DNA from: a phage
Length of the DNA stretch: 64,000 nt
Strand: one strand, 5' to 3'
Assembly (NCBI GenBank): GCA_036252695.1
Contig: GCA_036252695.1_4122.1
The translations under genes were made by a program, and so were the position numbers. Shown here one piece after another: positions 8,501-29,665 of this stretch (within the stretch, counting starts at the first letter, position 1; every line of letters begins with the position of its first letter). The notes below the pieces were generated by a model that had not been told where the DNA came from, made no database searches, and saw only the letters and a list, made by a program, of their open reading frames with translations.

Positions 8501-9631
8501 TTAATTATTTTTATAATTAATTTCCACATAGTTACGCTGTGATCCAGTATATCCAGGAACATTACCAGTATTACCATTACCTGCACCAAACAGACGTTCC
8601 CCAACTGCAAAATATGTCCCATAGAAACATCCATCGAAAACAGGAACATTATTATAATCAGATATGTATCTATCCATAGAATCCATTCTTGTGAATGTTG
8701 TCAGAGTTACATTCGTACCTATACCATATGCACCATAAGGGTTAGTACCAGCAACATAATACCCAGTGGGTGTACATATTATTGGTGTATTTGACCCTGC
8801 CCTTGTGTTGATAAAACGAAATGTACCTTCAGGTACTGGTGCTTCTTTACTGAATAATGTTGTAGCTACTACTGGGTAATCAATACCATAACTATTACCA
8901 CTCAACCACGTTTTACCATCACTATCTTTGAATAATGAAGTAACTTGTGAGTGTCCGAACAGATCCAAATTGGTTACGTTTGGAAATTTACTAATTTGTG
9001 TATATACCAGAAGTGTGGTTGCAGTAGAACTACCAAGTTGTCCACGACCATTATCACCCGCACTGTACATGTACCCATCGGTCTTTAATATTATACTAGC
9101 GTTTCCTAAAATATCAAAATCAACAACATCCGTTTGTGTTAATGTAGCTATAGGATAACGAAAATTCACTGCCTCACCAGTACCAAATTGACAATTGGTG
9201 TTTACCCCACATCCATATAAGTTGCCGTTTTGCATTAATATAAACAAACCTGTTGTCATTTTAATTTTCTTAATATTAAGAATATCTATATCTTGGAATA
9301 TGTGTGTTACATTTACAAATGTGGTTGAGTTAACAGCACTTGAACCATAATAAGAACCGTCCCCGCTGCCAAAGAATTCATCGCCTTTTCTGTACATTGC
9401 ACATAGACTACCACCCCATACATCATCAACTCCAGTGTCAATTTGAATAACTGAAGTAACACTAGTTGTTGCACCAGTGCCAAGTTCACCACCTGAATTG
9501 AATCCAAAACCATACAAATCTCCACTTTCGGTGAGCACCAAAACACTGTTATTGGTTGTACATGAAATCTTTTTGATATTATTAGATGGTCTTTTATTTC
9601 CGTACTTAACCATTCTTGCAAAAGGTAACAT
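8501..9631 (-). CDS. Fam-P beta-propeller paralog (RCC1-like), N-term MLPFARMVKYGN
   Basis: 376-aa ORF with conserved N-terminus; GGELGTG / NCQFGTG / GRGQLG motifs. Confidence 0.85.
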   Translation of the reverse strand: MLPFARMVKYGNKRPSNNIKKISCTTNNSVLVLTESGDLYGFGFNSGGELGTGATTSVTSVIQIDTGVDDVWGGSLCAMYRKGDEFFGSGDGSYYGSSAVNSTTFVNVTHIFQDIDILNIKKIKMTTGLFILMQNGNLYGCGVNTNCQFGTGEAVNFRYPIATLTQTDVVDFDILGNASIILKTDGYMYSAGDNGRGQLGSSTATTLLVYTQISKFPNVTNLDLFGHSQVTSLFKDSDGKTWLSGNSYGIDYPVVATTLFSKEAPVPEGTFRFINTRAGSNTPIICTPTGYYVAGTNPYGAYGIGTNVTLTTFTRMDSMDRYISDYNNVPVFDGCFYGTYFAVGERLFGAGNGNTGNVPGYTGSQRNYVEINYKNN

Positions 9632-9710
9632 ATTTTCCTCCTTTATTCATTATACTATATTTAATACAAAAAGAAATGCCAGCATCAAGTACTGGCATAG
9701 TTTTATAGTA
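9632..9710 (-). promoter_or_regulatory. Fam-P intergenic promoter/terminator module
   Basis: Same conserved sequence as 8424..8500 with variant hairpin atgccag..actggcat. Confidence 0.6.
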
Positions 9711-10820
9711 TCATTTCGGCATTGTAATTGCAGACCATGAGTTCGTGGTAATAGAACCTGGCACATACAAAAAAGAACCACAAGCATAAATTTGATTATT
9801 ACCATCAAATACTATACTAAAATGTGCACATGTGTATAATGCTGATTTTTCTGGGTTGTAATTATCTAAAGTTAGTGTATTGGTGAATCTACTCAAACTA
9901 CCACCAGAACCATTTCTACCAAATTCACCAGTACTATATATCTTTCCTTCGGTTGTTGCGTACATATTAACACGTGAAGTTGTACTTGATTTTGATATTT
10001 TATGTATCTTACTATCAATAGTAGTGGAGTTAAATGCAAATGGATATACTAGTGTGTTCGTTGTAATACCGTTACCAAGTTGACCAACATACTGCCAACC
10101 TGCGTTGTATATATTGCTGGCTGAATAAGCAAGAGTACCAGTACTGTTACCACCAAACAGTTTAACACTGGTTAACCTACTTACTAGTGTAGTATACTGT
10201 CCTGAACTTACGCCAAGTGAACCATACTCACTACTCCCACAACCGAGAAGTTCACCATTTGATGTTAATATTAATGTGTTATTCTGTGTACCCAATATAT
10301 CAAGGACTGTATTAGCTCCGGTATTAATAACTGAAACAAAAGTACTCTGAGCCGTGGAATACCCACCACCGAGTGAATAGTTACCATTCATGCCTCTACC
10401 ATAAACAATCGAACCACTAGCATCAACGTAGTGCATTGTATCTGCACCAATTGATATCATTTTAATATTAGATATATGTGGAAATGAAGAAGTAACATTC
10501 AAACCACCCAACGGAATCATAGTATTTCCTGTGCCTAATTGTGTGGTAACTCCATGCATTATGAATTCTTCACCCTTGATATAAAGAATATTGTACGCCC
10601 CAGCCCATGCATCAGTAACACCTTCTGAAATTAATATCCAAGTATTTCTTGTTGCTGTATTTGTAACGTTTAACTGAAAATACGAATTAACCCCACAACC
10701 ATAAAGTGAGCCATCGCCATAGAGGACGTACAAATTATCAAGACCGCACAGTACTTTCTTTATCTTTGGAGCTTCAGGTGCAATATTCCCGTAATCAAAC
10801 ATTCTAACAAATGGTAACAT
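9711..10820 (-). CDS. Fam-P beta-propeller paralog (RCC1-like), N-term MLPFVRMFDYGN
   Basis: 369-aa ORF; immediately downstream of 10830..11720 with SD in the 9-nt gap (bicistronic pair). Confidence 0.85.
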   Translation of the reverse strand: MLPFVRMFDYGNIAPEAPKIKKVLCGLDNLYVLYGDGSLYGCGVNSYFQLNVTNTATRNTWILISEGVTDAWAGAYNILYIKGEEFIMHGVTTQLGTGNTMIPLGGLNVTSSFPHISNIKMISIGADTMHYVDASGSIVYGRGMNGNYSLGGGYSTAQSTFVSVINTGANTVLDILGTQNNTLILTSNGELLGCGSSEYGSLGVSSGQYTTLVSRLTSVKLFGGNSTGTLAYSASNIYNAGWQYVGQLGNGITTNTLVYPFAFNSTTIDSKIHKISKSSTTSRVNMYATTEGKIYSTGEFGRNGSGGSLSRFTNTLTLDNYNPEKSALYTCAHFSIVFDGNNQIYACGSFLYVPGSITTNSWSAITMPK

Positions 10821-10829
10821 AATTTCTCC

Positions 10830-11720
10830 TTAATATGTCTTATGAACTGCATTGCCCTTTGCGTTAATAGTTCCACCAAAAAATGTATACACCGTAGATG
10901 TTTTACCATCACTAATCACTTCTATTCCTATCGCAAATGATACCGAAGGAACACTCACAGTACTGATCATAACCCATGAATTAGTGTTAGTATCATAATA
11001 TCCAACATTACCACCCCTGAATAAATAAATCCTTTCATTAAAATAACACAAATACGGATTGGATGATCCTGTCGTTGATACCGGCACTGAACCAGCGTAC
11101 TTAGTAAAGATTTCAGTACTTACATTGTATATGTATAAGTCATTACCATAAACAATACTAATAGAATTTGTTTTTTCATTATACGCAACACATCCACAAT
11201 ACATTACCCAAGAATAACCACTCGGCATAGTCTTCGTAAGTATTACTTTCGTATCTAAGTCAATTATATAAAATTTATTTACATTACCACCAAATACATA
11301 CATCTTAGACCCAACTAAACATGATGCAATATTGTATACACTGCTAACCGTACTAGAACCCCATGAGTACCTCGTTCCGTCGGTTCCATATACACTCATT
11401 AATTCACTCGGTCCAGAACCACCAAATATATACATCCTACCATTATAGTACTCCATTGTTCCTGCGTTGTGCGTGGAATCTATGGTAACTAGTGTACTAA
11501 AATCATTCAGTACTGGATTATACCTGTAAATCATTAAACCATCAATATTTCCATCAGTGGTAGTACCTCGTGTACAGTATATGTAAGTTTGATCTGTACA
11601 CGTCAACGGATAACGCATAGGTGATGGTATTGTGCCAGTAGGTTCTAATAGTTCATATATCCCACTAAATCCATTATTGATTGTATTCCCATAACTCAAC
11701 ATCCTTCCAAATGGTAACAT
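10830..11720 (-). CDS. Fam-P paralog with Kelch-like propeller body, N-term MLPFGRMLSYGN
   Basis: 296-aa ORF; hydrophobic-GG blades (MYIFGGSG, MYVFGGNV, TFFGGT) instead of RCC1 motifs. Confidence 0.8.
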   Translation of the reverse strand: MLPFGRMLSYGNTINNGFSGIYELLEPTGTIPSPMRYPLTCTDQTYIYCTRGTTTDGNIDGLMIYRYNPVLNDFSTLVTIDSTHNAGTMEYYNGRMYIFGGSGPSELMSVYGTDGTRYSWGSSTVSSVYNIASCLVGSKMYVFGGNVNKFYIIDLDTKVILTKTMPSGYSWVMYCGCVAYNEKTNSISIVYGNDLYIYNVSTEIFTKYAGSVPVSTTGSSNPYLCYFNERIYLFRGGNVGYYDTNTNSWVMISTVSVPSVSFAIGIEVISDGKTSTVYTFFGGTINAKGNAVHKTY

Positions 11721-11793
11721 CTCTCTCTCCTAAAAAGAATTATAATGTATTTAATCAAAAAAGCCCAGCACTTATTCAGTACTGAGCAGATTA

Positions 11794-12741
11794 TTATGTG
11801 AACTTATACATAACAGTGCTTCTATCGTTCGCACCACCACCACCAAAAAATGAATACGCTTCACGTTTTCCAGCAATATAACCGTACCATGTGTAGTAGG
11901 CAGAAGAAGTGTTAGTTCTTATACGTGTCCATGTCCCATTAGGTTCACGTTTAGTGACAAATGTACCCAAAATATAATATAATGTTCCATCGACAATTAT
12001 GAATCCTGCACCAGACGAAGTAATAGGAGAAAAAGATGGAATTACTTGCGTGAACGCATTTGTTGACGGATCATAATTATACATTGTACTACCTATTACT
12101 AGATATACTAACCCTTCATAAAAAATAACACTAGGGGATTCAACGTTTAGTGTTGGGGTAGTTATTCCAGATCTAACAGTTCTCCATACTTTGGTAATAT
12201 AATTATATGCAACAATAACTTCCTTTACACTACTAGACTGACCACCAAAATAAAAAATTTCATTCCCAATACATACTCCTGCATGGTTATACCTCGCAGG
12301 TGGTCTTCCACTATCATTTGAAATAATTTCTATTGAATTAGTACCAACCTTGTGACGAAAGAATTGAGAAGATGCGTTATTGCTTGAGTTCGCCCCACCA
12401 AAACCATATATATATCCATCAGGTGTATAAACCAATGGGGTAGATCTTAAATTTCTCAAATTACTAGAAGGAATCTGATAAAACGTATTATCTGACGCAT
12501 TATAATAAAAGAAATCATTTAAGTAAGTAGATCCAGTTCCAGTTATACCTCCTCCAGTTCCAGTTATACCTCCATAAAAATATACATATGGAAACTCTTC
12601 TACATTTGTTGAACATGATGACGTATAATTCCTTCCGGGTGGATTATACCCTGTACTATTGAATGTTATCTGTTCTGATATTCCCAAAAATACGCTAGGA
12701 GCAATATTTCCATACTCCAACATCCTTACAAATGGTAACAT
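11794..12741 (-). CDS. Fam-P paralog with Kelch-like propeller body, N-term MLPFVRMLEYGN
   Basis: 315-aa ORF; YFYGG / YGFGG / FYFGG / SFFGG repeats. Confidence 0.8.
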   Translation of the reverse strand: MLPFVRMLEYGNIAPSVFLGISEQITFNSTGYNPPGRNYTSSCSTNVEEFPYVYFYGGITGTGGGITGTGSTYLNDFFYYNASDNTFYQIPSSNLRNLRSTPLVYTPDGYIYGFGGANSSNNASSQFFRHKVGTNSIEIISNDSGRPPARYNHAGVCIGNEIFYFGGQSSSVKEVIVAYNYITKVWRTVRSGITTPTLNVESPSVIFYEGLVYLVIGSTMYNYDPSTNAFTQVIPSFSPITSSGAGFIIVDGTLYYILGTFVTKREPNGTWTRIRTNTSSAYYTWYGYIAGKREAYSFFGGGGANDRSTVMYKFT

Positions 12742-12751
12742 ATCTCTCTCC

Positions 12752-13939
12752 TTAATACCACGGCATATTTGCCATTAATTTTAATGTACTGGTAACATAT
12801 GATCCATCAGGTAATGATTGACCATTTGAATTATATCCACCACATGCATATAATTTATAATCTTTTGTTAATATCATTGATGATCTAATATCTTTGGATA
12901 TTGTCAATACATCATCATATGTACCAATAATACTAATATTCATATCTATCCATGATCGTTCGAACGGTGTTATTGTACCCAACCCTAGTTGACCAAGATC
13001 ATTTATTCCACCATTTCTAATTCGTGATGAATATGAAGCAATTGGTGCTCCCACATAGCCCGTTGATAAACTACTAGGAGATTTCAATGTCGGGAGATCA
13101 ATTGTACCAGAAAGTACAGTATTCTTAACAGCTAACAACGTATACCCACTAGTAACACTATTATTACCAGCCTGACCCATATTATTCAGACCACACCAAT
13201 ATATATCACCATTTTCAAAAAACCACCAAGTCGTATTGTAATTAGTACTAATGTGTTTTACGTTACGTGCAGTTAATGTATGTGCAGCTACAATAGAATC
13301 ATTAGCAGTTCCAGTACCACTAGTACCATTTGTATTTTCTCCAACAAAATATGATTCGTTTCTGGAGTTAATATAATGCGTACCATATGTCGAACAATAC
13401 ATACTCTTTACATCAGTACCAAATTGTGGTACAAATTGTAAAGTATTAATTGCTCCAGTAACACCCGTACCACATTCAGCATAAGCATTGTTACCACAAC
13501 ACATAACTCGACCATCATTTAATAATACTCTAGTACTCGCACCTATATATACACTCTTAATATCATCACCAACTACACCTAAAGCGTCAAAGTACTCAGT
13601 TACATCTTTCCACCCATCGGTGTTAGATGCGGTAGTCGCTTGTGGGAACGCAATTCTACTACCACAGTAGTATATTTTGTTCGAAAGACTTACCATCAAT
13701 GTACCAAACACACCAGTCCAATATTTTTTACAATCAGTACTCAGTACCATAAATTCAGTAGGTACAATTAATAAACTAAGCTGTTTGTTACTGTTTAATC
13801 CGTACCCATATAATGTATTAGTGGGTTTATGCAAATATAGTGTATTGTAATATTGTTGCTGTAAAACTTCATCAAACTCTTCAGGTTCAGGTACAGGCTT
13901 AATATTCCCATAATCAAACATTCTTCCGAAAGGTAACAT
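12752..13939 (-). CDS. Fam-P beta-propeller paralog (RCC1-like), N-term MLPFGRMFDYGN
   Basis: 395-aa ORF; 10-nt coupled gap to downstream 11794..12741; RCC1-like motifs. Confidence 0.85.
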   Translation of the reverse strand: MLPFGRMFDYGNIKPVPEPEEFDEVLQQQYYNTLYLHKPTNTLYGYGLNSNKQLSLLIVPTEFMVLSTDCKKYWTGVFGTLMVSLSNKIYYCGSRIAFPQATTASNTDGWKDVTEYFDALGVVGDDIKSVYIGASTRVLLNDGRVMCCGNNAYAECGTGVTGAINTLQFVPQFGTDVKSMYCSTYGTHYINSRNESYFVGENTNGTSGTGTANDSIVAAHTLTARNVKHISTNYNTTWWFFENGDIYWCGLNNMGQAGNNSVTSGYTLLAVKNTVLSGTIDLPTLKSPSSLSTGYVGAPIASYSSRIRNGGINDLGQLGLGTITPFERSWIDMNISIIGTYDDVLTISKDIRSSMILTKDYKLYACGGYNSNGQSLPDGSYVTSTLKLMANMPWY

Positions 13940-14023
13940 AATTTTACTCCCCTTTATTCATTATACTATATTTAATATAAATAAGAAAAGCCAGTACAGA
14001 GTACATGCATTGTATTTCACATT

Positions 14024-15199
14024 TTATTCTGGTAAAATCATTTTCTTCATTTTAACTTGTTGTGTACCTGGACTCTGTTCCTGAAACATAGACCCGTTAC
14101 CACACCAGTACACCTCATTAGTCCCCACTAACGCGTATAACACACCAGAACCACCTTGAACTGAAAATGCATTAACATCTGGTGCAACATCCATATCCTC
14201 ATATTGTACCTGGTGGTAATAAGATCTTTCTGATGCAGTAGTAACAGGCCAACCAAGAGGAACACCACTACCACATGTATAAAGTTTACCATTCTGTGTC
14301 ATTGCCATTATAAAATAATTCAAACTGTGATTGTTCATCGACCCAGCATCTGGTATAATACCACTAATTGCGGGAGTGGCACTAAATGGACTCATGATAA
14401 TAGTAGTGTCGCCATACCCTATTCCTAAACAATAATCAGTGTTTTTTCCAGCCGTATATACATTAATATTATTTCTATTAGATGTAAGTACTGAAGTCGT
14501 TAATGTAGTACATGAAATACCAATAACTGTTCCCGATATATCAGTACTTACCGTAAATGTCGAAAGTTTAGAAGAACCTGACCCTAAGTTGTAACTTGCG
14601 TTATTCCCACATCTGTAGTATTGATTATTTTTAACATAATGGAAAGCATCCCCAGCCGTTGTTCCCGCAATTATAGTAACCCCAGTAGCAATCTGAATTG
14701 GCGTTGTTTTTCTACCAGTAACACCCAATGCACCTCCTGTATTACGCCCAATCCCATATAAGTCCCCATTACTTAACAAAATCAATAACGCACCATTTGA
14801 TACAGTAGTTTCAGTAGCAGCTATATCTACTACTGTAGTAAGTGCTGGTATTGTAGACAATAAAGATGTGATATTAGTCCATCCAGGAACTGGTGATGCA
14901 GATACACCGACATAACCCATTTGACCAGCTAAGTAAAATTCTCCGTCAGTCGTAAGTATAATTGTTGCTGCAAAGAAGCACCAAACATTAGAAACTTTAT
15001 ATGGACACTGTACCCACCCATTTTGCACATACGCAGTGCTATTATTTCCTAGCATATAGTTTGCACCATTTCCACGTAGATATAAGTTACCACTATCAAA
15101 TAACATACCCATATGTGATGGAGATGTACTTATCTTCATAACACCTGAAGGTGCTGGAACTCTGTTTCCGTACTTAACCATTCTTGCAAAAGGTAACAT
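14024..15199 (-). CDS. Fam-P beta-propeller paralog, N-term MLPFARMVKYGN
   Basis: Start at conserved MLPF Met (track ORF starts 6 codons earlier inside SD region). Confidence 0.85.
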   Translation of the reverse strand: MLPFARMVKYGNRVPAPSGVMKISTSPSHMGMLFDSGNLYLRGNGANYMLGNNSTAYVQNGWVQCPYKVSNVWCFFAATIILTTDGEFYLAGQMGYVGVSASPVPGWTNITSLLSTIPALTTVVDIAATETTVSNGALLILLSNGDLYGIGRNTGGALGVTGRKTTPIQIATGVTIIAGTTAGDAFHYVKNNQYYRCGNNASYNLGSGSSKLSTFTVSTDISGTVIGISCTTLTTSVLTSNRNNINVYTAGKNTDYCLGIGYGDTTIIMSPFSATPAISGIIPDAGSMNNHSLNYFIMAMTQNGKLYTCGSGVPLGWPVTTASERSYYHQVQYEDMDVAPDVNAFSVQGGSGVLYALVGTNEVYWCGNGSMFQEQSPGTQQVKMKKMILPE

Positions 15200-15270
15200 A
15201 TTTCCTCCTTTATTCATTATACTATATTTAATACAAAAAGAAAAGCCAGTATCAAGTACTGGCCTATATT

Positions 15271-16008
15271 TTAGACTGAATTGTTAGGATAATATCTCCC
15301 ACGTCCCCATATTATTCGCACAGCTCCACCACCAGCCGCCGTATAAGAAGAATTATCCCATATACTACCACCACCACCATACCTCTTACCAGCACCACCA
15401 CTACCAGCACCACCATTATATGAACCATCGTAGCTACCACCAATACCATTAGCACCTTGAACAATGATACCAGTACCACCACCCGTACCAATGAACGAGG
15501 TATTATAGAATGCACCACCACCACCGCCGCCGCCAGCACCATTTTCACCAGTGATTGCATTTCCGTTACCACCTTTACCAGTGTAGCCACCAGCACCACC
15601 ACCAATGACTGCACCACCACTTAAACCAGTGTTGCCACCATTACCACCACCATCATTAATAGCGTTAGCAGCTTTTCCACCTAGTCCACCAACCGTATAT
15701 GCACCAGTGAAGCTAACACATAGTTTTTCAGTTCCACGATATAAACCGTTTTCAACTGCTGTAGTAGTGTTGGGATGTGTAAGAGAAACACTTAAGTACT
15801 CACCACCAGAAACCGGAATATTATTACGCCACGATAAGCCGCCGCCAGCACCACGTTGACCACCCGGCGAAATAACACATACTGATATTTCGGTAACGCC
15901 AGCAGGAACTGTAAATTGTGTTGTTCCTATTGTCGTGATTAATTGTTCACCATGTGGCTTATATTCAATTTTATTCCCGTACTTAACCATTCTTGCAAAA
16001 GGTAACAT
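15271..16008 (-). CDS. Fam-P paralog with Gly-rich body, N-term MLPFARMVKYGN
   Basis: 245-aa ORF; same N-terminal tag and promoter module but body is low-complexity Gly-rich (GGGNGGNTG..GAGGGGGGG). Confidence 0.8.
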   Translation of the reverse strand: MLPFARMVKYGNKIEYKPHGEQLITTIGTTQFTVPAGVTEISVCVISPGGQRGAGGGLSWRNNIPVSGGEYLSVSLTHPNTTTAVENGLYRGTEKLCVSFTGAYTVGGLGGKAANAINDGGGNGGNTGLSGGAVIGGGAGGYTGKGGNGNAITGENGAGGGGGGGAFYNTSFIGTGGGTGIIVQGANGIGGSYDGSYNGGAGSGGAGKRYGGGGSIWDNSSYTAAGGGAVRIIWGRGRYYPNNSV

Positions 16009-16079
16009 AATTCCCTCCTTTATTCATTATACTATATTTAACCAAAAAGAAAAGCCAGTACTCTGTACTGGCTTTTACA

Positions 16080-17270
16080 TTACAATTGTCTAGGTGTATC
16101 CAGTACATATCTATTTGTACTAGGACCACCATCATCATACGTTCCGGTTGAATATATATTTTTCATATCCGCAGTTAGGAAAGTACGCAACGAACCGCGA
16201 TATATTTTTATTTTATCATACATAGAATATGTTATTTCTGACGGCAATGGACATGCAGTAAATTTACCAATGGTAGCATCATAACCAACACCCAATGTGC
16301 CAGCATAACTACTCGCATTTAAACCAGTTGCATATACACCTGCACTCGTAACTAGTATACTAGATTGTGCTGGGTATCCAGTATGAATTGAATACAAAGT
16401 ACCGGGTGGTAATGTAGCACTATTATTTCCTAAAACTCCATTAACAGTGCTAGATGTAGTTTTATTTCCCCATGCTCCATTATTAGCTAATCCACCAACT
16501 AGAAACTGACGTGCTCCTGTACTTGGATTCTCTACTAAAGCACTGACAGCACCAAATGAACAAACAGTATATTGTAATGTTTTTGTATATGTGGTACTTG
16601 GCTGATATAAAGTATATTCATTAAATGGTGTCCATGTGGTACTAGTACTTATGCCAGATGTACTACCACCAATATATAAATTATTTTGTTTATCAAACAA
16701 CATTACACAGTTATATGTTGACATTATTTGTGCAATATCAACATCTGGTGTTACCGCTTTAACAAATGAACCATCTGATATTTGATAAGTAGTTCCTGTA
16801 CCATCTGCGAATTGTCTAGCACTATTCCACCCTGTACTCCATATTGTATTATTATCCATTAAGAAAGTAAACCACGTAGTACCTGCATACATCTGTTTAA
16901 TTGAAGTACTTGAACTTTGTGTGTACAAATTTTCAATATATTGGTTATAACTTAAAAACGTAGTAGTACTAGTTGGTAAACCAATATGACTACCATATCC
17001 ACAATAAAAATAATTTAAGTCATTATCTTGTACTAACAAAGTTCCTTGTGTCATCCAGCAATCTTTGACATTTTCTCTAATTAATGTCCACGACCTTACT
17101 GCATTATTATTTCCTCTACCAAACTTCCCATAACTATTACTGCCTCGTGCGTATAGTTGACCGTCGGTATAAAGTACAACAACCTCAGTATCAGTTGGTA
17201 TTATTTTCTTAATTTGAAGAGGTTCAGGTGTGATATTCCCATAATCAAACATTCTAACAAAAGGTAACAT
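16080..17270 (-). CDS. Fam-P beta-propeller paralog, N-term MLPFVRMFDYGN
   Basis: 396-aa ORF with conserved start module. Confidence 0.85.
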   Translation of the reverse strand: MLPFVRMFDYGNITPEPLQIKKIIPTDTEVVVLYTDGQLYARGSNSYGKFGRGNNNAVRSWTLIRENVKDCWMTQGTLLVQDNDLNYFYCGYGSHIGLPTSTTTFLSYNQYIENLYTQSSSTSIKQMYAGTTWFTFLMDNNTIWSTGWNSARQFADGTGTTYQISDGSFVKAVTPDVDIAQIMSTYNCVMLFDKQNNLYIGGSTSGISTSTTWTPFNEYTLYQPSTTYTKTLQYTVCSFGAVSALVENPSTGARQFLVGGLANNGAWGNKTTSSTVNGVLGNNSATLPPGTLYSIHTGYPAQSSILVTSAGVYATGLNASSYAGTLGVGYDATIGKFTACPLPSEITYSMYDKIKIYRGSLRTFLTADMKNIYSTGTYDDGGPSTNRYVLDTPRQL

Positions 17271-17341
17271 AATTCCCTCCTTTATTCATTATACTATATT
17301 TAATACAAAAAGAAAAGCCAGTACAGAGTACTGGCGTAATG

Positions 17342-18484
17342 TCAATAAGTATCCCAAGGTAATGGTGTCTTCCTAAATCCATACCTGGTTGTGCTCGCAC
17401 CATCACCAGCAATGTATCTACCTATACCACATTGGTATAACTCAGTACTACTACATATAGCACCACCTATAGTACCACTACTCCACTGAATTATATTAGA
17501 ATATGTTATTGGTAAATCACTACATTTAGTATATACAGCAACGGTAGAAGCACCACTAATACCACCAAACATACTTCGGTTAGCACCAGTGTAATATATA
17601 CCATCTGGACTCATAAATGCAGAGGTGTAAGTTGTACTGCAATCCACTGGACTTCTTATTGTATTAAGATCGCCTGGGTATGTCCTGACACCAAAGGTGT
17701 ATACATTACCATCAGTTGTAATACCATTACCTAACTGCCCACTGCTTTGTCCACCACATGTAAGCAACAATGCAGAACCAGAAACAATTGCAGTAGCATT
17801 ATACGAAGTACCCATTGCAATAGAAGCACCAGACAATAGTTTTGGAGTAACAATAGCTGTTGTATTACCCTGGCCTAATTCACCATTGATATTTCGTCCC
17901 CATGCGTATATAGAAGTCGTATCCAATCGACATAGTACTGAACCATAACTAAACGTATATCGCATGTCAATTACCGCATTAGGCAAATTAACCTTAGTTG
18001 CAACACTAATAACACCACCAGTAACACCACTGTTTGCGTTCATGTTACGACCATATGCATATAAAGAACCATCTGAAGTTTTAATATGCATCATACCATC
18101 TGTACAATATAATGCATCGATGCTATCCACTGCAACCGGACCCATACTGGCAGTTATATCGGTCCACCCAAGAGTAGTAGTACTAGAAATTAAGTTATTT
18201 CCTGCGTATAGTATTCTATTATTATTAGTAACTACCACTGTATATCTAGCAGTAACTCCAATTAATCGAACATCAGTATATATCTTAGACCACGCACCTA
18301 GTGAATTGGTATTTGCATCCAAAAAACCCAACTGACCATCTGTATTGTATCCAATCCCCCATACATCACCTGCACTGTCCAATAATACTTCATGTGAAAA
18401 GCCGATCTTAAAATCTTTTATTGTAGGAACTACAGGAACTGGTGCAATATTCCCGTACTTAACCATTCTTGCAAAAGGTAACAT
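17342..18484 (-). CDS. Fam-P beta-propeller paralog (RCC1-like), N-term MLPFARMVKYGN
   Basis: 380-aa ORF; NTDGQLG / NGELGQG / SGQLGNG motifs. Confidence 0.85.
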   Translation of the reverse strand: MLPFARMVKYGNIAPVPVVPTIKDFKIGFSHEVLLDSAGDVWGIGYNTDGQLGFLDANTNSLGAWSKIYTDVRLIGVTARYTVVVTNNNRILYAGNNLISSTTTLGWTDITASMGPVAVDSIDALYCTDGMMHIKTSDGSLYAYGRNMNANSGVTGGVISVATKVNLPNAVIDMRYTFSYGSVLCRLDTTSIYAWGRNINGELGQGNTTAIVTPKLLSGASIAMGTSYNATAIVSGSALLLTCGGQSSGQLGNGITTDGNVYTFGVRTYPGDLNTIRSPVDCSTTYTSAFMSPDGIYYTGANRSMFGGISGASTVAVYTKCSDLPITYSNIIQWSSGTIGGAICSSTELYQCGIGRYIAGDGASTTRYGFRKTPLPWDTY

Positions 18485-18558
18485 AATTCCCTCCTTTATT
18501 CATTATACTATATTTAATACAAATAAGAAAGCCAGTACACAGTACTGGCTTTTTAATT

Positions 18559-19713
18559 TTAACTCGGTGTAACTATTTTTTTAAATAATCCTGTATTTCC
18601 GGCATTTTCTTCTTCATACGGAATTGTACCCATACCAGCAGTTCTACCACCATTCCCTGAACCATATAATTCACCGTTTTTTAACATGAATGTTATCATA
18701 TAACCATGTGTCATTTTATCATATGGAACTGGTTCAGTTATATTAGTACATGCACGCCATGTTTTAATAACATTAGAGTTCGTTATTCCATCTCCAGAAG
18801 CGTTTCCACGCCCAGCGAAATACCATATACCACCTGCTCTAACGTGTGCTTCAAAATTAGAACCACCTATGTAATCAATAGCAGTACTAGGAATACTAGA
18901 AGCTGGTATCTTTGTGATTGTTCTAAGACTGTTAATAGTGCCATCAGTGCCATCACCCAACTGTCCATCTATTTGTGAACCGAATACATATAGCCCATCA
19001 CTCTTTAATACGTAATTAGCACTATATGCATTTTCCGAATTTATCTGTAATACTCCAGTAGTAACAGTAGTCAATGTGGGAGTTGTACTAGTCGTACCAG
19101 TCGAACCAATACTAGATTTATTCCCACTGTACTTTAATGTTCCATCATTGTATAATACAAATGAAGCATTATTCGCGGTTACACCAATATCTTTAACATT
19201 AACTTCTGGTGTCAATGTCAGTACTGATACTCTTTGACCAACAGCCCCAGTAAAAACTTCACCGTTGTTATTGTCACCCATCTTATATAATTTATTATCT
19301 ATTGTTAATAATAATGTAACGCCGCTTCCTATAACTATTTTACTATATGTGTCATTCACATCATTAAAAATACCAAGTATTTCTGTCCATACACGATAAG
19401 TAGTATTAACACCACGATAGATTTGAGTACCAGTACTCCACCATGTGCCATCATTTTTACGTACTAATATTCCTTGTGTATCACCAGTAGTCCAAAATTC
19501 CTTTACATCAGTTAAACATAAAACCCACTCTTCAACTATAGTAGGAGAACTACTACCAGTACCTAATTGATAGTAAAAATTATGCCCTCTGCCATATAAC
19601 CTTCCGTCTTCTAATAAAATAAACACATTATTCTGTAAAACTTTTACCATCTTTATACCAACTGGCACAGGTGCTTCATTCCCATAATCAAACATTCTAA
19701 CAAAAGGTAACAT
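18559..19713 (-). CDS. Fam-P beta-propeller paralog, N-term MLPFVRMFDYGN
   Basis: Start at conserved MLPF Met; track extension is translated promoter region. Confidence 0.85.
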   Translation of the reverse strand: MLPFVRMFDYGNEAPVPVGIKMVKVLQNNVFILLEDGRLYGRGHNFYYQLGTGSSSPTIVEEWVLCLTDVKEFWTTGDTQGILVRKNDGTWWSTGTQIYRGVNTTYRVWTEILGIFNDVNDTYSKIVIGSGVTLLLTIDNKLYKMGDNNNGEVFTGAVGQRVSVLTLTPEVNVKDIGVTANNASFVLYNDGTLKYSGNKSSIGSTGTTSTTPTLTTVTTGVLQINSENAYSANYVLKSDGLYVFGSQIDGQLGDGTDGTINSLRTITKIPASSIPSTAIDYIGGSNFEAHVRAGGIWYFAGRGNASGDGITNSNVIKTWRACTNITEPVPYDKMTHGYMITFMLKNGELYGSGNGGRTAGMGTIPYEEENAGNTGLFKKIVTPS

Positions 19714-19788
19714 ATATTTTCCTCCTTTATTCATTATACTATATTTAACACAAAAAGAAAAGCCAGTATCAAGTACTGGCATATTAAC

Positions 19789-20937
19789 TTACTGCAAAAA
19801 TGACATATCGACTGCGGTATATTGGGCAGTGTACTGACCAGAACTTCCACCCATTACTAGATTCGAAAAACCAGTATAAAATAACTTACCTTCATCTGTT
19901 AGAATCAAAGTGCCGATGTTGTTCAGTACTAAACTGTAAGAACTATTAAAATTTGCATAGGACTGGGTATAATAGAACTGATTTGTAAGATTACCAACAC
20001 CCAATTGTCCTCCATTGTTAACCCCAGTTGCAAATATTGTAGTACCAAATCTGAGAATATGTGAAGCCATATTGCCGACGCAACAATGTACCTTCTGAAC
20101 ATCCGAATTCAATAAAGTAGCTGTTTTGTATTGTTTAAGTGTTGTACCAGTACCAAATTCATTACCATACGATGTACCATACTGTGTACCACAACCGTAC
20201 AATTTATTATTAGTTTTAATAAAAAACGTACTCTGATAACTTACATCTACATCTATAACATCTGGTGCTACTCTCACAACTCCAGAAGGCGAAGTTTGAT
20301 TATCTTTCCCTAACTGGTAGTAAGAGTTTGCACCACATCCCCATAATGTATTATCTTCTTTCAGGTATATATTACCAACTGCTTTTTTTACAGATGATAT
20401 GGTTTCAATCTTAACAAAGGTGTTATATGAATTTGTATTTGTACCATTACCAAAAGATGATCTGGATGATGTGTTATTTAATCCACAGCAATATAAAGTA
20501 CCATCTGTTGTTATCAAATTCACTTTAAGATCACTATAACTACTCATGTATTTTATATCAGAAACATTAATACCACTTGATGTTATCCACGTAGTACAGT
20601 CCGTCCATAACGTCTTTCTATCAGTTACACCAGTGAATGCCTTCGTGTTACCAGTGATAAAAACTTTTCCAGTACCGTCTTCTTCATATAATTGACAATC
20701 ACTACTGTTATTTTCCAAAAGAACTCTTTTAACATTCACCGCACTAAGAATAAATTTACTCGACGAACCACCTGTTCCAGTACCATGACTTACCGGTGAC
20801 GATGCATACAATTTTTTAGTGTGTGTATCATGAAAATACATAGCACTACCACCGGAATATATTTTATAACGTGTACTAGGAACAGGTGGAATAGGTGCTT
20901 CATTCCCATAATCAAACAATCTAACAAAAGGTAACAT
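19789..20937 (-). CDS. Fam-P beta-propeller paralog, N-term MLPFVRLFDYGN
   Basis: 382-aa ORF; close paralog of 26990..28138 (long identical stretches). Confidence 0.85.
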   Translation of the reverse strand: MLPFVRLFDYGNEAPIPPVPSTRYKIYSGGSAMYFHDTHTKKLYASSPVSHGTGTGGSSSKFILSAVNVKRVLLENNSSDCQLYEEDGTGKVFITGNTKAFTGVTDRKTLWTDCTTWITSSGINVSDIKYMSSYSDLKVNLITTDGTLYCCGLNNTSSRSSFGNGTNTNSYNTFVKIETISSVKKAVGNIYLKEDNTLWGCGANSYYQLGKDNQTSPSGVVRVAPDVIDVDVSYQSTFFIKTNNKLYGCGTQYGTSYGNEFGTGTTLKQYKTATLLNSDVQKVHCCVGNMASHILRFGTTIFATGVNNGGQLGVGNLTNQFYYTQSYANFNSSYSLVLNNIGTLILTDEGKLFYTGFSNLVMGGSSGQYTAQYTAVDMSFLQ

Positions 20938-21008
20938 AATTCCCTCCTTTATTCATTATACTATATTTAATACAATAAGAAAAGCCAGTACAGAGTACTG
21001 GCATTATG

Positions 21009-22118
21009 TTATTTTGGTAAATCAATTTTAGTAAAGACTGCAACATCCTCGCTTGCCCCTGGGATGGCGTAATAAGAACCAGTACTATATACATCTCCGT
21101 CTTTTGTTAATATTGAAGTTAAACCATCACTAAAAACAATGTCTTTAATCGAACTCAACGGAACTTTCAAATCCAAATTAACTGCTGTATTTTCCACACC
21201 TCTCTGGTCGCCACCTACTCCTAAACCACGAACCCCACCTACACCTTTCTGGTAGGATGGAGTTATTATCATCATAGCAGCAGAGCTAGAATTCATTGTA
21301 TTAGTCATGTATAAAGGAGCAATATTAGGTAGAGTCGCATCAGGAATACCCGTCATTAATTGTACAGTAGAACCATAGAAATTAGGGGCATATCCACAGG
21401 TATTATAACGCGTACCATTGTAATACATTATATTAGTACCACCTACCGTAGCATCAATAACCCCACTCGCTCTAGCCGCCCATGTATTAACCTGAACTCG
21501 GTTGTTTGTTCCATGTTGACCATTATCATTCCAGCCAGAACTATATAACCTATTATCAGTACTAATATATATGCTATCATTTCCCGTTGTCATTACTTTA
21601 CGTACGTTAGTAGCACATTGAGTTAATGTATAAATCGATGATGAACCAATACCTAATGCACCACGGTATCCATTATATCCTGCACCATATAGTACTGAAC
21701 TAGAACTAAGTACAAATATTACACCATTTGAACATACAATATTAGCAATTTCACTTACTGGTATTGCATTTGTGAACCAACTGGTTCTATCAACTAATGT
21801 AGTACTGTAAGAAGTAGTTGTAGAAGATGTGAACCAGTACGTTTGACCTGATGTCCATATCGTATTATCATTTTTAATAATAACAAGTGCACGATCACCC
21901 ACGAAAAAATTAGAAACATCTGCACTTACTAATATCCATGAAGATACCGTGTTGGTATTACCATTTCCAGATTCACCACCTTGATTTCTACCTATGTAAT
22001 ATAAATCATGTGAATCTGTCAATAAGAATTGACCCTGTGTAGAAGCACCAACTTTAATTATATTTTTAGGACCAGGTGCAACATTCCCATACTCCAACAT
22101 CCTTACAAAAGGTAACAT
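21009..22118 (-). CDS. Fam-P beta-propeller paralog, N-term MLPFVRMLEYGN
   Basis: 369-aa ORF with conserved N-terminus. Confidence 0.85.
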   Translation of the reverse strand: MLPFVRMLEYGNVAPGPKNIIKVGASTQGQFLLTDSHDLYYIGRNQGGESGNGNTNTVSSWILVSADVSNFFVGDRALVIIKNDNTIWTSGQTYWFTSSTTTSYSTTLVDRTSWFTNAIPVSEIANIVCSNGVIFVLSSSSVLYGAGYNGYRGALGIGSSSIYTLTQCATNVRKVMTTGNDSIYISTDNRLYSSGWNDNGQHGTNNRVQVNTWAARASGVIDATVGGTNIMYYNGTRYNTCGYAPNFYGSTVQLMTGIPDATLPNIAPLYMTNTMNSSSAAMMIITPSYQKGVGGVRGLGVGGDQRGVENTAVNLDLKVPLSSIKDIVFSDGLTSILTKDGDVYSTGSYYAIPGASEDVAVFTKIDLPK

Positions 22119-22128
22119 ATTTCTCTCC

Positions 22129-23259
22129 TTAATTTAATAATGCCCCTGGCAAATCCACTTTGACGAATTGTGCATATGCTGAGGAATTTTGATCAAAGTT
22201 TGGTCCCAATCCATAAAATGAGCTAATGCCGTCTTCATTTGTGTATATGATATAAACGTTCTTTACATCATTTCCGCATATAAATCGAATGTCTTTCGTT
22301 TGTGTTCCCGCTGGAACATTACGAAGGTTCACAACGCCATTACTTGCATTGTTATCAGCCGACGCAATTGGTAATTGATTTTGACCATATTGACCACGCA
22401 TATTTTTTGCATCTAAACCAAACACAGTATCTGATACTGCACCAACTTTCAAAAATGAACCAAAACTATTATTGAATGACTTTGGAAATGTACCACTATA
22501 AACACTTCTCCCATCTGATAATACCGCTGAACTGAATTTCCCGCTATTCGATATGGCAAATTCATTGTAAGGAAGTGTACCCATTTTGGTATATACAGAA
22601 TATGAATTAGTGGAAGTATTATCAATAATCTTATTACCATTATATCCAATACCATACTGGTATCCGTCTGCATCTTGAACTATACACAAAGGACCACTTG
22701 GGGTTTGTGTCAACGAAACAACACGTTCAACTTGTATATCACCAAATGTATTTCTTCGCCATGTTCTATCTATTATAGTACTAGTATTACCCAAAGATAA
22801 TGCCACACTATATAATAGATTGTTTTCAGTAAAAATGGCAACATAATATGCGTGGTTAATAACTTGCTTCATCCCAGCATCAATAACTTCCTGTGGAATA
22901 TGATCAGTAACATCCAACCAATCAAGGTTAGATGATGCAATATCTGGAGTACTGAATTTGTCAAATCTAGTTGAGCCACAAACTAGCACTCTATCATCAT
23001 TTGTCAAAGCCACTGTGCTAGTCTGCATATTAGAACTGAATGATTTAACATTACTAATGTTAGACTTGTACCAACCCTTATCAGCAGCACCCACCGTGAA
23101 TCCGGTTCCCATTGATCCACTTGTACTTGTACCATAAGCCCACATCTCACCACTATATGTTAGTGCCATACAGTGGCTTCCATTTGCTTGGAAATCCTTT
23201 ATACCAGTGGGAGCAACCACTGTATTCCCATAATCAAACATTCTAACAAAAGGTAACAT
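22129..23259 (-). CDS. Fam-P paralog, N-term MLPFVRMFDYGN
   Basis: Start at MLPF Met; 10-nt coupled gap to downstream 21009..22118. Confidence 0.8.
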   Translation of the reverse strand: MLPFVRMFDYGNTVVAPTGIKDFQANGSHCMALTYSGEMWAYGTSTSGSMGTGFTVGAADKGWYKSNISNVKSFSSNMQTSTVALTNDDRVLVCGSTRFDKFSTPDIASSNLDWLDVTDHIPQEVIDAGMKQVINHAYYVAIFTENNLLYSVALSLGNTSTIIDRTWRRNTFGDIQVERVVSLTQTPSGPLCIVQDADGYQYGIGYNGNKIIDNTSTNSYSVYTKMGTLPYNEFAISNSGKFSSAVLSDGRSVYSGTFPKSFNNSFGSFLKVGAVSDTVFGLDAKNMRGQYGQNQLPIASADNNASNGVVNLRNVPAGTQTKDIRFICGNDVKNVYIIYTNEDGISSFYGLGPNFDQNSSAYAQFVKVDLPGALLN

Positions 23260-23334
23260 AACTAAAATCTCCATATAATAATTATAATGTATTTACAAAA
23301 AAATACCAGTACGTATTTCAGTACTGGTATAATG

Positions 23335-24507: not shown

Positions 24508-24516
24508 TATTTTCTC

Positions 24517-25710: not shown

Positions 25711-25780
25711 ATTTCCTCCTTTATCCATTATACTATATTTAATACAAAAAGAAATGCCAGTATCAAGTACTGGCCTGTAT

Positions 25781-26917: not shown

Positions 26918-26989
26918 ATTCCCTCCTTTATTCATTATACTTTATTTAATACAAATAAGAATGCCTGTATCGAGTACTGGCATATTAAT

Positions 26990-28240: not shown

Positions 28241-28468
28241 ATGACAAATACTCTTAAGTACTACCTCAATACTCTAAATGAACTAGAGTACGCGAAGTTT
28301 CTCGCGGATAGTTCGTGGCTAATTGAGCTAAAAACACATAACAGTACTGGATGTAACCTTATGCTGAACAATGCACTTGATACCCTTGTAGTGAGCATTT
28401 TACACAACAACATCTGCGGGGATAGAAACAAACAATTATCAAAAATCTTAGTACTGGTAGCTCTATGA
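28241..28468 (+). CDS. EYY-family A small protein
   Basis: 75-aa ORF with SD; first of tandem array. Confidence 0.55.
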   Translation: MTNTLKYYLNTLNELEYAKFLADSSWLIELKTHNSTGCNLMLNNALDTLVVSILHNNICGDRNKQLSKILVLVAL

Positions 28469-28677
28469 ACACTATGAACATTGAACAGTACTACATTGAT
28501 GCACTACCAACAAAAGGTCTACGAGAAAGCCTACTGTATACACAAAATAATTATATAAACCTCAAACATTGTCCTAAACTCTTGAACTCGTACAGGAATA
28601 ATAAAATAAGAAATGCTGTACAAGGGGTAGAAAGTATGCAATACTATTACATCCTAACCCTTTTAATCGAGCACTAA
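28465..28677 (+). CDS. EYY-family A small protein
   Basis: N-term MNTMNIEQYYIDALP; ATGA-coupled. Confidence 0.6.
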   Translation: MNTMNIEQYYIDALPTKGLRESLLYTQNNYINLKHCPKLLNSYRNNKIRNAVQGVESMQYYYILTLLIEH

Positions 28678-28678
28678 T

Positions 28679-28864: not shown

Positions 28865-28875
28865 AAGAGTACTAT

Positions 28876-29270: not shown

Positions 29271-29280
29271 AGAGAATACT

Positions 29281-29463: not shown

Positions 29464-29471
29464 GGTAATAT

Positions 29472-29657: not shown

Positions 29658-29665
29658 GGTACTCT

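What the first reader, a model, noticed from the sequence alone, without database searches (positions are those of the whole stretch)
10830..16008. The same N-terminal tag is fused to unrelated domains (Kelch-like propellers, Gly-rich domain)
Genes 10830..11720 and 11794..12741 have hydrophobic-GG Kelch-like blades (MYIFGG, YGFGG, FYFGG). Gene 15271..16008 is a low-complexity Gly-rich protein. All keep the MLPF..YGN start and the conserved upstream module. A 12-aa peptide retained across unrelated folds behaves like a targeting or attachment signal (compare capsid-targeting sequences of phage internal proteins) rather than part of the fold.
Basis: inference. Interest (0 to 1): 0.75.

Follow-up and report, generated by a model that had tools for sequence, protein, structure and literature searches.

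The report
Shared docking tag on jumbo-phage proteins
Nineteen neighbouring genes of an E. coli jumbo phage start with the same 12 amino acids but go on to encode unrelated binding folds, and published data from related phages show such proteins in the virus particle with the tag still attached, so the tag most likely plugs interchangeable "sticky heads" onto one site of the virion.

Summary

The tag is conserved as protein: third codon positions vary, upstream DNA differs between genera, and four window genes, including Kelch 11794-12741, lack the promoter module. AlphaFold2 leaves residues 1-20 outside both folds tested.

Published virion mass spectrometry detects 9 of 11 tagged CBB proteins and 6 tagged phAPEC6 proteins. 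CBB peptides cover tag residues 7-12, so the tag is not cleaved as the T4 capsid-targeting sequence is.

Best reading: a retained N-terminal docking peptide displaying interchangeable binding heads on a common virion acceptor, possibly the unexplained "hairs". The tag-coding DNA and its upstream module also mark the breakpoints of cassette shuffling between strains. The acceptor, and whether the tag is necessary or sufficient, remain untested.

The parts
5402..28138 (-). Whole array of 19 tagged genes, interrupted only by the + strand ORF 6604-7254. CDS: 5402-6526, 7287-8423, 8501-9631, 9711-10820, 10830-11720, 11794-12741, 12752-13939, 14024-15199, 15271-16008, 16080-17270, 17342-18484, 18559-19713, 19789-20937, 21009-22118, 22129-23259, 23335-24507, 24517-25710, 25781-26917, 26990-28138.
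   Evidence: every gene starts MLPF..YGN. (16 RCC1-like, 2 Kelch, 1 without a Pfam match).
10830..11720 (-). Kelch propeller protein 1 (296 aa), starting MLPFGRMLSYGN. It is the first gene of a two-gene unit with 9711-10820.
   Evidence: Pfam Kelch families, phrog_12615. An identical protein occurs on a 357,661-bp contig.
11685..11720 (-). Tag-coding codons 1-12 of Kelch protein 1.
11738..11787 (-). Divergent upstream module of Kelch gene 1: terminator-like hairpin 11763-11787 and promoter-like TTAAATACATTATAATT at 11738-11754.
   Evidence: 3 mismatches to the array consensus.
11794..12741 (-). Kelch propeller protein 2 (315 aa), starting MLPFVRMLEYGN. It is the second gene of a two-gene unit with 12752-13939.
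   Evidence: Pfam Kelch families pass their cut-offs. All four homologues found by body similarity also carry the tag.
12706..12741 (-). Tag-coding codons 1-12 of Kelch protein 2.
12742..12754 (-). Junction upstream of Kelch gene 2: the stop codon of 12752-13939 overlapping a Shine-Dalgarno site (TAAGGAGAGAGAT). There is no terminator or promoter module.
   Evidence: No match here.
15271..16008 (-). Glycine-rich protein (245 aa), starting MLPFARMVKYGN: tag, short linker, then a TNF-like plus glycine-rich adhesin-type head.
15973..16008 (-). Tag-coding codons 1-12 of the glycine-rich protein.
   Evidence: AlphaFold2 residues 1-10 have pLDDT 49.
16013..16076 (-). Full upstream module of the glycine-rich gene: terminator-like hairpin 16050-16076, promoter-like TTAAATATAGTATAATG at 16025-16041, and Shine-Dalgarno AGGAGGG at about 16013-16019.
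   Evidence: In this window the motif occurs essentially only upstream of array genes.

Best explanation
MLPFxRMxxYGN is a portable N-terminal docking peptide. It stays on the mature protein, lies outside the folded domain, and is followed by a short, often Pro-rich, linker. It attaches whatever domain follows to one common acceptor on the jumbo-phage virion. The domains are an RCC1 or Kelch propeller, a LamG-type lectin, or a TNF-like/glycine-rich adhesin head.

The particle would therefore display a mixed set of carbohydrate- or protein-binding heads, encoded by a rapidly shuffled cassette array. The acceptor is most likely on the outside of the particle. The unexplained hair-like fibres and decoration sites seen on phAPEC6, 121Q and CBB are the leading candidates.

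At the DNA level, the tag codons plus the terminator/promoter module act as the homology where cassettes recombine.

Shown: the tag exists on four or more folds, is conserved as protein, is predicted to lie outside the fold, is present in virion proteins of relatives with the tag retained, and coincides with recombination breakpoints.

Inferred: docking is the tag's function, the acceptor is external, and the heads bind host or environmental glycans.
For: (1) Portability. 19 of 19 array genes carry the tag: 16 RCC1-like, 2 Kelch and 1 Gly-rich. In CBB, GAP32, Serratia BF, Yersinia fHe-Yen9-04 and metagenomic ~350-378 kb contigs it also heads LamG/ConA-like proteins and RCC1+Kelch fusions. Gly-rich homologues in other phages (Seunavirus and many others) lack it and start MLELL/MIELL instead, so the tag was grafted onto a pre-existing domain.

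(2) Protein-level selection. Third codon positions vary while the residues do not, and upstream DNA is not conserved between genera. Four window genes lack the promoter module yet keep the tag. Kelch homologues retrieved by body similarity alone all carry it.

(3) Position. A profile of the first 30 residues, searched against 1.84 billion representative proteins, gives 65 hits. 62 place the motif at the very N-terminus or just after a mis-called start, and one lies downstream of a read-through of the upstream module.

(4) Outside the fold. AlphaFold2 gives pLDDT 48-49 for residues 1-10 and 67-69 for 11-20, with no secondary structure before residue 20-22, in both the Gly-rich and an RCC1-like model.

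(5) Virion association in relatives. CBB_144, 247, 536, 537, 548, 549, 551, 552 and 553 are detected by virion MS (PMC5259590 Table 4 and text). All start MLPF. That is 9 of 11 tagged proteins against 55 of 554 overall, P 2e-8. phAPEC6 gp003, 005, 006, 007, 009 and 010 are virion proteins (PMC7247149) and all start MLPF. gp007 is a truncated 269-aa propeller yet is still in the virion.

(6) Tag retained. The CBB MS supplement lists LFEYANVIIPPNYK (CBB_536 residues 7-20) and YANVIVEYATK (CBB_548 residues 10-20), plus peptides starting right after the tag.

(8) Link to the hairs. All six CBB structural proteins absent from GAP32, the set the CBB authors pointed to when looking for hair genes, are tagged.

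(9) Shuffling. 30 of 36 ends of >=90%-identity blocks shared with Turkey3, 121Q, phAPEC6 and metagenomic arrays lie within -45 to +100 nt of a tagged start codon, against 12% expected. Orthologous bodies carry different tag variants in different strains.
Against: No experiment shows that the tag is necessary or sufficient for incorporation. The acceptor is unknown, and no solved structure contains any of these proteins.

The virion MS data come from relatives, not this phage. phAPEC6 coverage is low (1-4 peptides). Two CBB Kelch proteins and about half of the phAPEC6 tagged genes were not detected.

The extreme N-terminal peptide (MLPF...) was not found in the part of the CBB peptide list that is held, so loss of residues 1-6 is not excluded.

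Low AlphaFold2 confidence is not proof of disorder, and the Kelch proteins were not modelled.

Within-genome identity of the tag is inflated by gene conversion; for example, nearly all 121Q copies read xRMVK.

Globular 25-45 kDa heads cannot themselves be the 119-nm hairs. GAP32, which is not reported as hairy, also has tagged proteins.
Confidence: 0.6

Rival explanations
1. Capsid-interior targeting. The tag works like the T4 capsid-targeting sequence, loading diverse proteins into the prohead core so that they are packaged with, and perhaps ejected with, the DNA.
For: The logic matches T4 internal proteins: a diverse set sharing only a short N-terminal CTS (PMC3012670). The proteins are in purified virions. 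The phAPEC6 authors speculated that RCC1-like proteins could organise the inner body. MS cannot distinguish inside from outside.
Against: Tag residues 7-12 are present in mature CBB virion proteins, whereas, from my own knowledge, the T4 CTS is removed by the prohead protease. Position 9 is variable (K, D, E, Q, N, S, V), so there is no conserved Glu-type cleavage site. The bodies are lectin, propeller or adhesin folds typical of external binding, and one matches tail-fibre receptor-binding heads. Strain-to-strain cassette turnover resembles that of receptor-binding proteins.
Confidence: 0.12
2. DNA-level feature only. The 5' end is kept because it belongs to a promoter/RBS/translation-initiation unit, or because it is the homology tract for gene conversion. 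The peptide itself would have no function.
For: Most window genes carry a near-identical ~110-nt unit of terminator, promoter, Shine-Dalgarno site and tag. Tag variants co-travel with the module and are homogenised within genomes. Recombination breakpoints sit in this unit. The Shine-Dalgarno sequence can pair with codons 3-4.
Against: Starts 10820, 12741, 22118 and 24507 lack the module but keep the tag. In CBB and metagenomic relatives the upstream DNA is unrelated, yet the peptide is kept, with synonymous codons varying: CCT/CCA/CCC/CCG, TAT/TAC, GGG/GGA/GGT/GGC, AGA/AGG/CGA/CGT. RNA folds around the start are not significant, with z from -0.7 to +0.9. As an additional role, the crossover function is well supported; as the sole explanation it is not.
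Confidence: 0.05
3. Part of the fold. The N-terminal strand closes the beta-propeller ('velcro' closure) and is conserved for structural reasons.
For: From my own knowledge, RCC1 and Kelch propellers often close the ring with a terminal strand. 18 of the 19 window proteins are propellers.
Against: The same peptide heads non-propeller folds: LamG/ConA-like and TNF-like/Gly-rich. AlphaFold2 gives no secondary structure and low confidence for residues 1-20 in the RCC1-like model, even though the tag is invariant in its alignment. A Pro-rich linker follows the tag. The Kelch proteins themselves were not modelled.
Confidence: 0.03
4. Recognition handle for something other than the virion acceptor, such as a dedicated assembly chaperone, a modifying enzyme or an oligomerisation partner. 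Virion incorporation would then depend on the bodies or on other contacts.
For: Fibre adhesins of the same fold need dedicated chaperones, for example Pam3 gp25 (PMC9608196). A conserved unknown + strand gene (6604-7254) sits inside the array. No acceptor has been identified.
Against: Four unrelated folds are unlikely to share one folding chaperone requirement. A truncated propeller that keeps the tag (phAPEC6 gp007) is still in the virion. Retention of the tag in mature particles is not required by this model, but is compatible with it.
Confidence: 0.12

Closest known systems
T4-type capsid-targeting sequence (CTS) of internal proteins IPI/IPII/IPIII (PMC3012670)
   Same: A short (~10 aa) N-terminal peptide is the only thing shared by a diverse, fast-evolving set of virion-packaged proteins. 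The peptide is portable to foreign cargo.
   Different: From my own knowledge, the CTS directs proteins to the scaffolding core inside the prohead and is cleaved off. Here the tag residues are found in mature virion proteins of CBB, there is no conserved cleavage motif, and the cargo are external-type binding folds. There is no sequence similarity.
Branched receptor-binding complexes with conserved N-terminal anchor domains (CBA120 TSP1-4; RaK2 gp526-534; PMC10253068)
   Same: Many receptor-binding proteins in one phage share a conserved N-terminus that mediates attachment, with variable C-terminal binding or enzymatic heads. RaK2 is a relative of this phage.
   Different: Those anchors are folded domains of ~100 aa or more in trimeric fibres. 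Here the shared element is 12 residues plus a linker, predicted to be unstructured. The heads are mostly monomer-type propellers and lectins, not beta-helix depolymerases.
Glycine-rich fibre adhesins (cyanophage Pam3 gp24; S16/T-even gp38) (PMC9608196)
   Different: The helical docking domain is replaced here by the 12-residue MLPF tag. Sequence identity is only 17%, and no adjacent chaperone gene was recognised.
PeSL promoter-terminator cassettes that mediate modular shuffling in T4-like phages (PMC2839356, PMC4122927)
   Same: The upstream module is a composite terminator hairpin plus promoter repeated between variable genes, and recombination breakpoints between related phages fall in it.
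   Different: The sequence is different and so is the phage group. The promoter class is untested. The homology tract here extends into the coding region (the tag), so DNA-level and protein-level modules coincide.
Cohesin-dockerin type docking (conceptual analogue, from my own knowledge)
   Same: One short docking element lets many unrelated domains occupy equivalent sites on a scaffold.
   Different: Dockerins are ~70-aa folded calcium-binding domains. No homology is implied.

Membership tests
Kelch-repeat beta-propeller (genes 10830-11720 and 11794-12741) | Significant matches to Kelch repeat or propeller profiles | tested here: met
   Gene 2: PF24681 59.5 bits (cut-off 50), PF24981 52.6 bits (cut-off 50), and Kelch_6/_2/_1/_4 above their cut-offs. 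Gene 1: PF24681 E 8e-11 but below its cut-off, and Kelch_2 24.6 bits (cut-off 21.3).
RCC1-like propeller (16 other array genes) | Matches to RCC1 or RCC1-like domain profiles | tested here: met
   PF25390 matches 16 members, PF13540 matches 14 and PF00415 matches 11. PDB sequence hits to UVR8, HERC2 and RCC1. AlphaFold2 gives an all-beta repeat model with pTM 0.86.
Glycine-rich fibre-adhesin head (PF21722-type; Pam3 gp24-like) | TNF-like sandwich plus stacked glycine-rich loops; structural match to solved fibre adhesins | tested here: met
Glycine-rich fibre-adhesin head (PF21722-type; Pam3 gp24-like) | Trimeric assembly and receptor binding | not testable with these tools
   Only a monomer could be modelled.
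T4-type capsid-targeting sequence | Short conserved N-terminal peptide on otherwise unrelated virion proteins | tested here: met
   Virion MS in relatives.
T4-type capsid-targeting sequence | Peptide removed by the prohead protease at a conserved site | tested here: not met
   CBB virion peptides cover tag residues 7-12 and 10-12. There is no conserved acidic cleavage position.
T4-type capsid-targeting sequence | Cargo located inside the capsid | not testable with these tools
   MS does not give location, and no solved structure exists.
Modular receptor-binding proteins with a conserved N-terminal anchor | Conserved N-terminus with variable C-terminal binding module, in the virion | tested here: met
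   MS in relatives.
Modular receptor-binding proteins with a conserved N-terminal anchor | Anchor is a folded domain (tens to hundreds of residues) in a trimeric fibre | tested here: not met
   The conserved part is 12 residues, with AlphaFold2 pLDDT 48-69 and no secondary structure before residue 20-22.
Modular receptor-binding proteins with a conserved N-terminal anchor | Binds a host receptor and determines host range | not testable with these tools
   Needs adsorption and host-range experiments.
PeSL-like promoter-terminator shuffling cassette | Composite terminator plus promoter repeated between variable genes | tested here: met
   Terminator-like hairpins. Promoter-like motif with 17 matches against 1.8 expected, 15 of them upstream of array genes. 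Alignment by eye.
PeSL-like promoter-terminator shuffling cassette | Indel and rearrangement breakpoints between related phages fall in the cassette | tested here: met
   30 of 36 block ends lie within -45 to +100 nt of a tagged start, against 12% expected.
PeSL-like promoter-terminator shuffling cassette | Promoter activity and timing class | not tested
   There is no transcript data. The sigma-70 scan does not pick the motif out.

The most novel reading that the evidence does not exclude
The 12-residue tag is a universal plug for the enigmatic hair-like fibres or decoration sites of these jumbo phages. Any protein that carries it is displayed, so each virion shows a random mixture of about 20 different lectin, propeller or adhesin heads. 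This would be a built-in, combinatorial 'phage display' used for multivalent, bet-hedging adhesion. The same 36 nt, together with the promoter/terminator cassette, would be the crossover site that lets heads be swapped between phages, so the protein interface and the DNA recombination site would be one and the same module.
Probability: 0.3. Interest if true: 0.8.

Novelty: new variant of a known kind. Interest (0 to 1): 0.62.

Why it matters
If the tag is a docking peptide, four things follow.

- It gives the first molecular handle on the unexplained hairs and decorations of phAPEC6, 121Q and CBB-type jumbo phages.
- These genes are annotated as 'chromosome condensation', 'HERC1' or 'NS1A-binding' proteins. 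They would instead be virion-displayed binding heads.
- It gives a mechanism for why jumbo-phage genomes carry large arrays of such paralogues.
- It offers a very small natural tag for loading arbitrary cargo onto a large phage particle, analogous to the biotechnological use of the T4 CTS.

The overlap of a protein docking site with a recombination site is also a neat case of selection at two levels.

Tried and rejected
- Homologue searches for the two Kelch proteins returned only 2 and 4 proteins, too few for a good AlphaFold2 alignment. The two modelling jobs therefore went to the Gly-rich and an RCC1-like member, and the Kelch proteins were not modelled.
- A 25-aa tag-plus-linker query against PDB sequences found nothing.
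- The phAPEC6 paper has no supplement held, so its peptides could not be checked.
- In the CBB peptide list the extreme N-terminal peptide (MLPF...) was not found. This is uninformative, because MLPFPR-type peptides are short and the file may be cut.
- RNA structure around the start is not significant, with z from -0.7 to +0.9.
- The + strand gene 6604-7254 is not a homologue of CBB_547 and has no annotated family.
- The scarcity of long ORFs at 28-64 kb first suggested recoding. That region in fact holds many small genes in the standard code.
- No paper in the searchable library mentions this N-terminal motif.


Full report
WHAT THE WINDOW IS

Megablast places the region in the E. coli jumbo phages of the 121Q/PBECO4/phAPEC6/G17 group (Asteriusvirus). 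The best hit is 99.5% identity to phage Turkey3, over only part of the query. The finding lies inside a block of minus-strand genes with strongly negative GC skew.

CHECKING THE OBSERVATION

ORF listing and a regex scan show 19 minus-strand genes between 5402 and 28138 that start M-L-P-F-x-(R/L)-(M/L)-x-x-Y-G-N. A degenerate DNA pattern for the motif matches 16 times, against 0 in 100 shuffles.

In a 19-protein alignment, M1 L2 P3 F4 Y10 G11 N12 are invariant, although mean column identity is 27% and the three focal proteins are 14-21% identical to the rest.

Pfam members RCC1-like and the two genes 10830-11720 and 11794-12741 Kelch. It gives nothing for 15271-16008. So the core observation is right and understated.

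Two details are wrong.
- The Gly-rich protein is not low-complexity filler (see below).
- The upstream module is not universal. It consists of a terminator-like hairpin (GCCAGTAC...GTACTGGC plus a T-run), TTAAATATAGTATAATG and AAAGGAGG. It is present in full upstream of 16008, is divergent upstream of 11720, and is absent upstream of 12741, which starts 10 nt after the preceding stop codon. It is also absent upstream of 10820, 22118 and 24507.

THE TAG IS PORTABLE

- Scanning IMG/VR and metagenomes with degenerate DNA patterns found the motif almost only on ~350-378 kb contigs. These include 121Q, GAP32, CBB, Serratia phage BF (and Erwinia relatives) and Yersinia phage fHe-Yen9-04.
- There it heads RCC1-like and Kelch propellers, ~200-260-aa LamG/ConA-like lectin domains, RCC1+Kelch double propellers and Gly-rich proteins.
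- In CBB, every gene of the minus-strand cluster CBB_536, 537 and 548-554 starts with the tag, as do the distant genes CBB_144 and CBB_247.
- The Gly-rich domain belongs to a large family (PF21722-like) whose members in other phages start MLELL/MIELL. Only the jumbo-phage members start MLPF. The tag has therefore been grafted onto a pre-existing domain.
- A profile of only the first 30 residues, run against 1.84 billion representative proteins, gave 65 hits at E <= 1e-3. 62 have the motif at the N-terminus or just after a mis-called start. One lies downstream of a read-through of the upstream module, and two are repeat artefacts.

PROTEIN OR DNA CONSERVATION?

Over 101 distinct tagged gene starts, the information profile shows codon periodicity. 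It carries 1.8-2.0 bits at positions 1 and 2 of codons 2, 3, 4 and 12, and 0.7-1.8 bits at third positions. All Pro, Tyr, Gly, Asn and several Arg codons are used. Upstream, only a Shine-Dalgarno signal is conserved.

This set was collected by the motif, so invariance of the residues is partly by construction. The unbiased controls agree:
- 19 of 19 array genes carry the tag.
- 9 of 9 genes of the CBB cluster carry it.
- 4 of 4 Kelch homologues found by body similarity carry it.

Genes lacking the promoter module keep the tag. RNA folding around the start is unremarkable.

DNA-level processes are nevertheless real.
- Orthologous bodies carry different tag variants in different strains. For example, 9711-10820 has VRMFD here and TRMVK in 121Q.
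- 121Q has homogenised nearly all its copies to xRMVK.
- The order of cassettes differs between this phage and Turkey3.
- 30 of 36 ends of >=90%-identity blocks shared with Turkey3, 121Q, phAPEC6 and metagenomic arrays fall within -45 to +100 nt of a tagged start codon, against 12% expected.

The tag codons plus the module are thus the crossover site for cassette exchange. This closely parallels the PeSL promoter-terminator cassettes of T4-like phages.

IS THE TAG PART OF THE FOLD?

AlphaFold2 on the Gly-rich protein, with a 49-sequence alignment, gives pLDDT 92.5 and pTM 0.88. Residues 1-10 score 49, residues 11-20 score 67, and the first strand starts at residue 20.

AlphaFold2 on the RCC1-like protein 17342-18484, aligned with its 15 window paralogues, gives pLDDT 84.6 and pTM 0.86. 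Residues 1-10 score 48, residues 11-20 score 69, and the first strand starts at residue 22. This is despite the tag being invariant in the alignment.

A Pro-rich linker (x-x-P-x-P) commonly follows the tag. The Kelch proteins could not be modelled for lack of homologues.

WHAT THE BODIES ARE

[quoted passage not shown] Here the docking domain's place is taken by the 12-residue tag. RCC1, Kelch and LamG domains are generic protein- or glycan-binding modules.

VIRION ASSOCIATION (PUBLISHED DATA, RELATIVES)

- phAPEC6 virion MS lists gp003, 005, 006, 007, 009 and 010 as 'DNA condensation' or hypothetical proteins (PMC7247149). I confirmed that all six start MLPF. gp007 is a truncated 269-aa propeller.
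- CBB virion MS lists CBB_144, 536, 537, 548, 549, 551, 552 and 553 in Table 4 and CBB_247 in the text (PMC5259590).
- That is 9 of 11 tagged proteins in CBB, against 55 of 554 ORFs overall (P 2e-8). For phAPEC6 it is 6 of 12, against 62 of 551 (P 9e-4).
- The CBB peptide table contains LFEYANVIIPPNYK (CBB_536 residues 7-20), YANVIVEYATK (CBB_548 residues 10-20), VVSNEYEINLDFSR (CBB_553 residues 15-28) and IAPYQILYEMK (CBB_144 residues 14-24). At least residues 7-12 of the tag are therefore present in mature particles.
- This argues against a cleaved T4-type capsid-targeting sequence (for the T4 system).
- The six CBB structural proteins absent from GAP32 are all tagged. This is the set the CBB authors reasoned should include the genes for the tail 'hairs'.
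- phAPEC6 and 121Q also have unexplained fibres on capsid hexamers and at three rings on the tail.

MOST LIKELY MECHANISM

The tag is a retained docking peptide. It binds a common acceptor on the particle and thereby displays interchangeable binding heads.

- Steps shown: portability, protein-level conservation, a position outside the fold, virion presence with the tag retained (in relatives), and recombination at the tag.
- Steps inferred: docking is the function of the tag, the acceptor is external and perhaps hair-associated, and the heads bind host or environmental ligands.

Rivals are given with their weights in the Rival explanations section: interior targeting without cleavage, a purely DNA-level role, a fold element, and a chaperone or enzyme handle.

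COMPARISON WITH KNOWN SYSTEMS AND NOVELTY

The principle of a conserved N-terminus with variable heads is well known from branched receptor-binding complexes, including RaK2, a relative (PMC10253068), and from the T4 CTS. This case differs in four ways:
- the shared element is only 12 residues and apparently unstructured;
- it is spread over at least four folds and about 20 paralogues per genome;
- it is retained rather than cleaved;
- its coding DNA doubles as the recombination site.

I found no paper describing the motif and no solved structure of any member. Current annotations such as 'regulator of chromosome condensation', 'E3 ubiquitin ligase HERC1' and 'NS1A-binding protein' are fold labels that mislead as to function.

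I rate this a new variant of a known kind, with moderate to high interest. It is limited by the lack of direct evidence for the acceptor and for tag dependence.

Noticed in passing
window 28241-33232 (+): About 25 tandem small genes (59-75 aa) form a second paralogue family. They share N-terminal M(H/N)KE(Y/F)Y... and C-terminal ...VLKLI(S/A)I or ...LI(Y/F)(R/K)Y motifs. This explains the lack of long ORFs here; no recoding is needed.
   Followed up: partly
window 2926-5365 (+): Seven consecutive ORFs of 104-123 aa with abutting or overlapping ends. They may correspond to the small 'putative membrane protein' paralogues next to the tagged cluster in CBB (CBB_543-545).
   Followed up: no
window 6604-7254 (+): A 216-aa ORF of unknown function (phrog_34359, no Pfam match) is the only plus-strand gene inside the tagged array and is conserved at the same place in Turkey3. 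It is a candidate accessory factor, and it is not homologous to CBB_547.
   Followed up: partly
P0005-P0084 (homologues of window 15271-16008): Glycine-rich family members from other phages share their own short N-terminal motif, M(L/I)E(L/M)(L/M)..., in place of MLPF. This may be an analogous lineage-specific N-terminal module.
   Followed up: no
P0002 (metagenomic homologue of window 15271-16008): This variant has the tag deleted, apparently between two GGGAAT repeats (the Shine-Dalgarno spacer and codons 11-12), so the ORF starts MNKGGNKIEYKP. It also carries an internal deletion. It could be a natural tagless allele or an assembly artefact.
   Followed up: no
L008:6416-8416, L026:11755-13824, L051:1903-3930, L058:140-2158: Proteins of 667-690 aa with a single MLPF tag. 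L008:6416-8416 was confirmed by Pfam to be an RCC1-like propeller followed by a Kelch propeller; the other three are assumed alike from their size and tag.
   Followed up: partly
L049 (phAPEC6) 7325-8059; window 15312-15620: In the phAPEC6 GenBank record the glycine-rich tagged gene is not annotated. Instead a spurious out-of-frame ORF (gp004, VVQSLVVV...) is called, the same frame artefact as window ORF 15312-15620. The absence of this protein from the phAPEC6 proteome is therefore uninformative.
   Followed up: partly
L001 (121Q) 3422-3628 and 1530-2339; L021:7106-7213: Truncated array members of 36, 68 and 269 aa keep an intact tag and module, showing ongoing decay and turnover of cassettes. 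The 269-aa form is the phAPEC6 gp007 orthologue found in virions.
   Followed up: partly
window 16013-16019 versus 15997-16002, and equivalents: The Shine-Dalgarno sequence AGGAGG is complementary to tag codons 3-4 (CCUUUU). A small hairpin is predicted, but it is not better than shuffled controls.
   Followed up: yes
L047:4286-5557: Two in-frame MLPF tags lie 41 codons apart at the start of one gene, next to a G10 homopolymer. This may be a tag duplication or a sequencing artefact.
   Followed up: no
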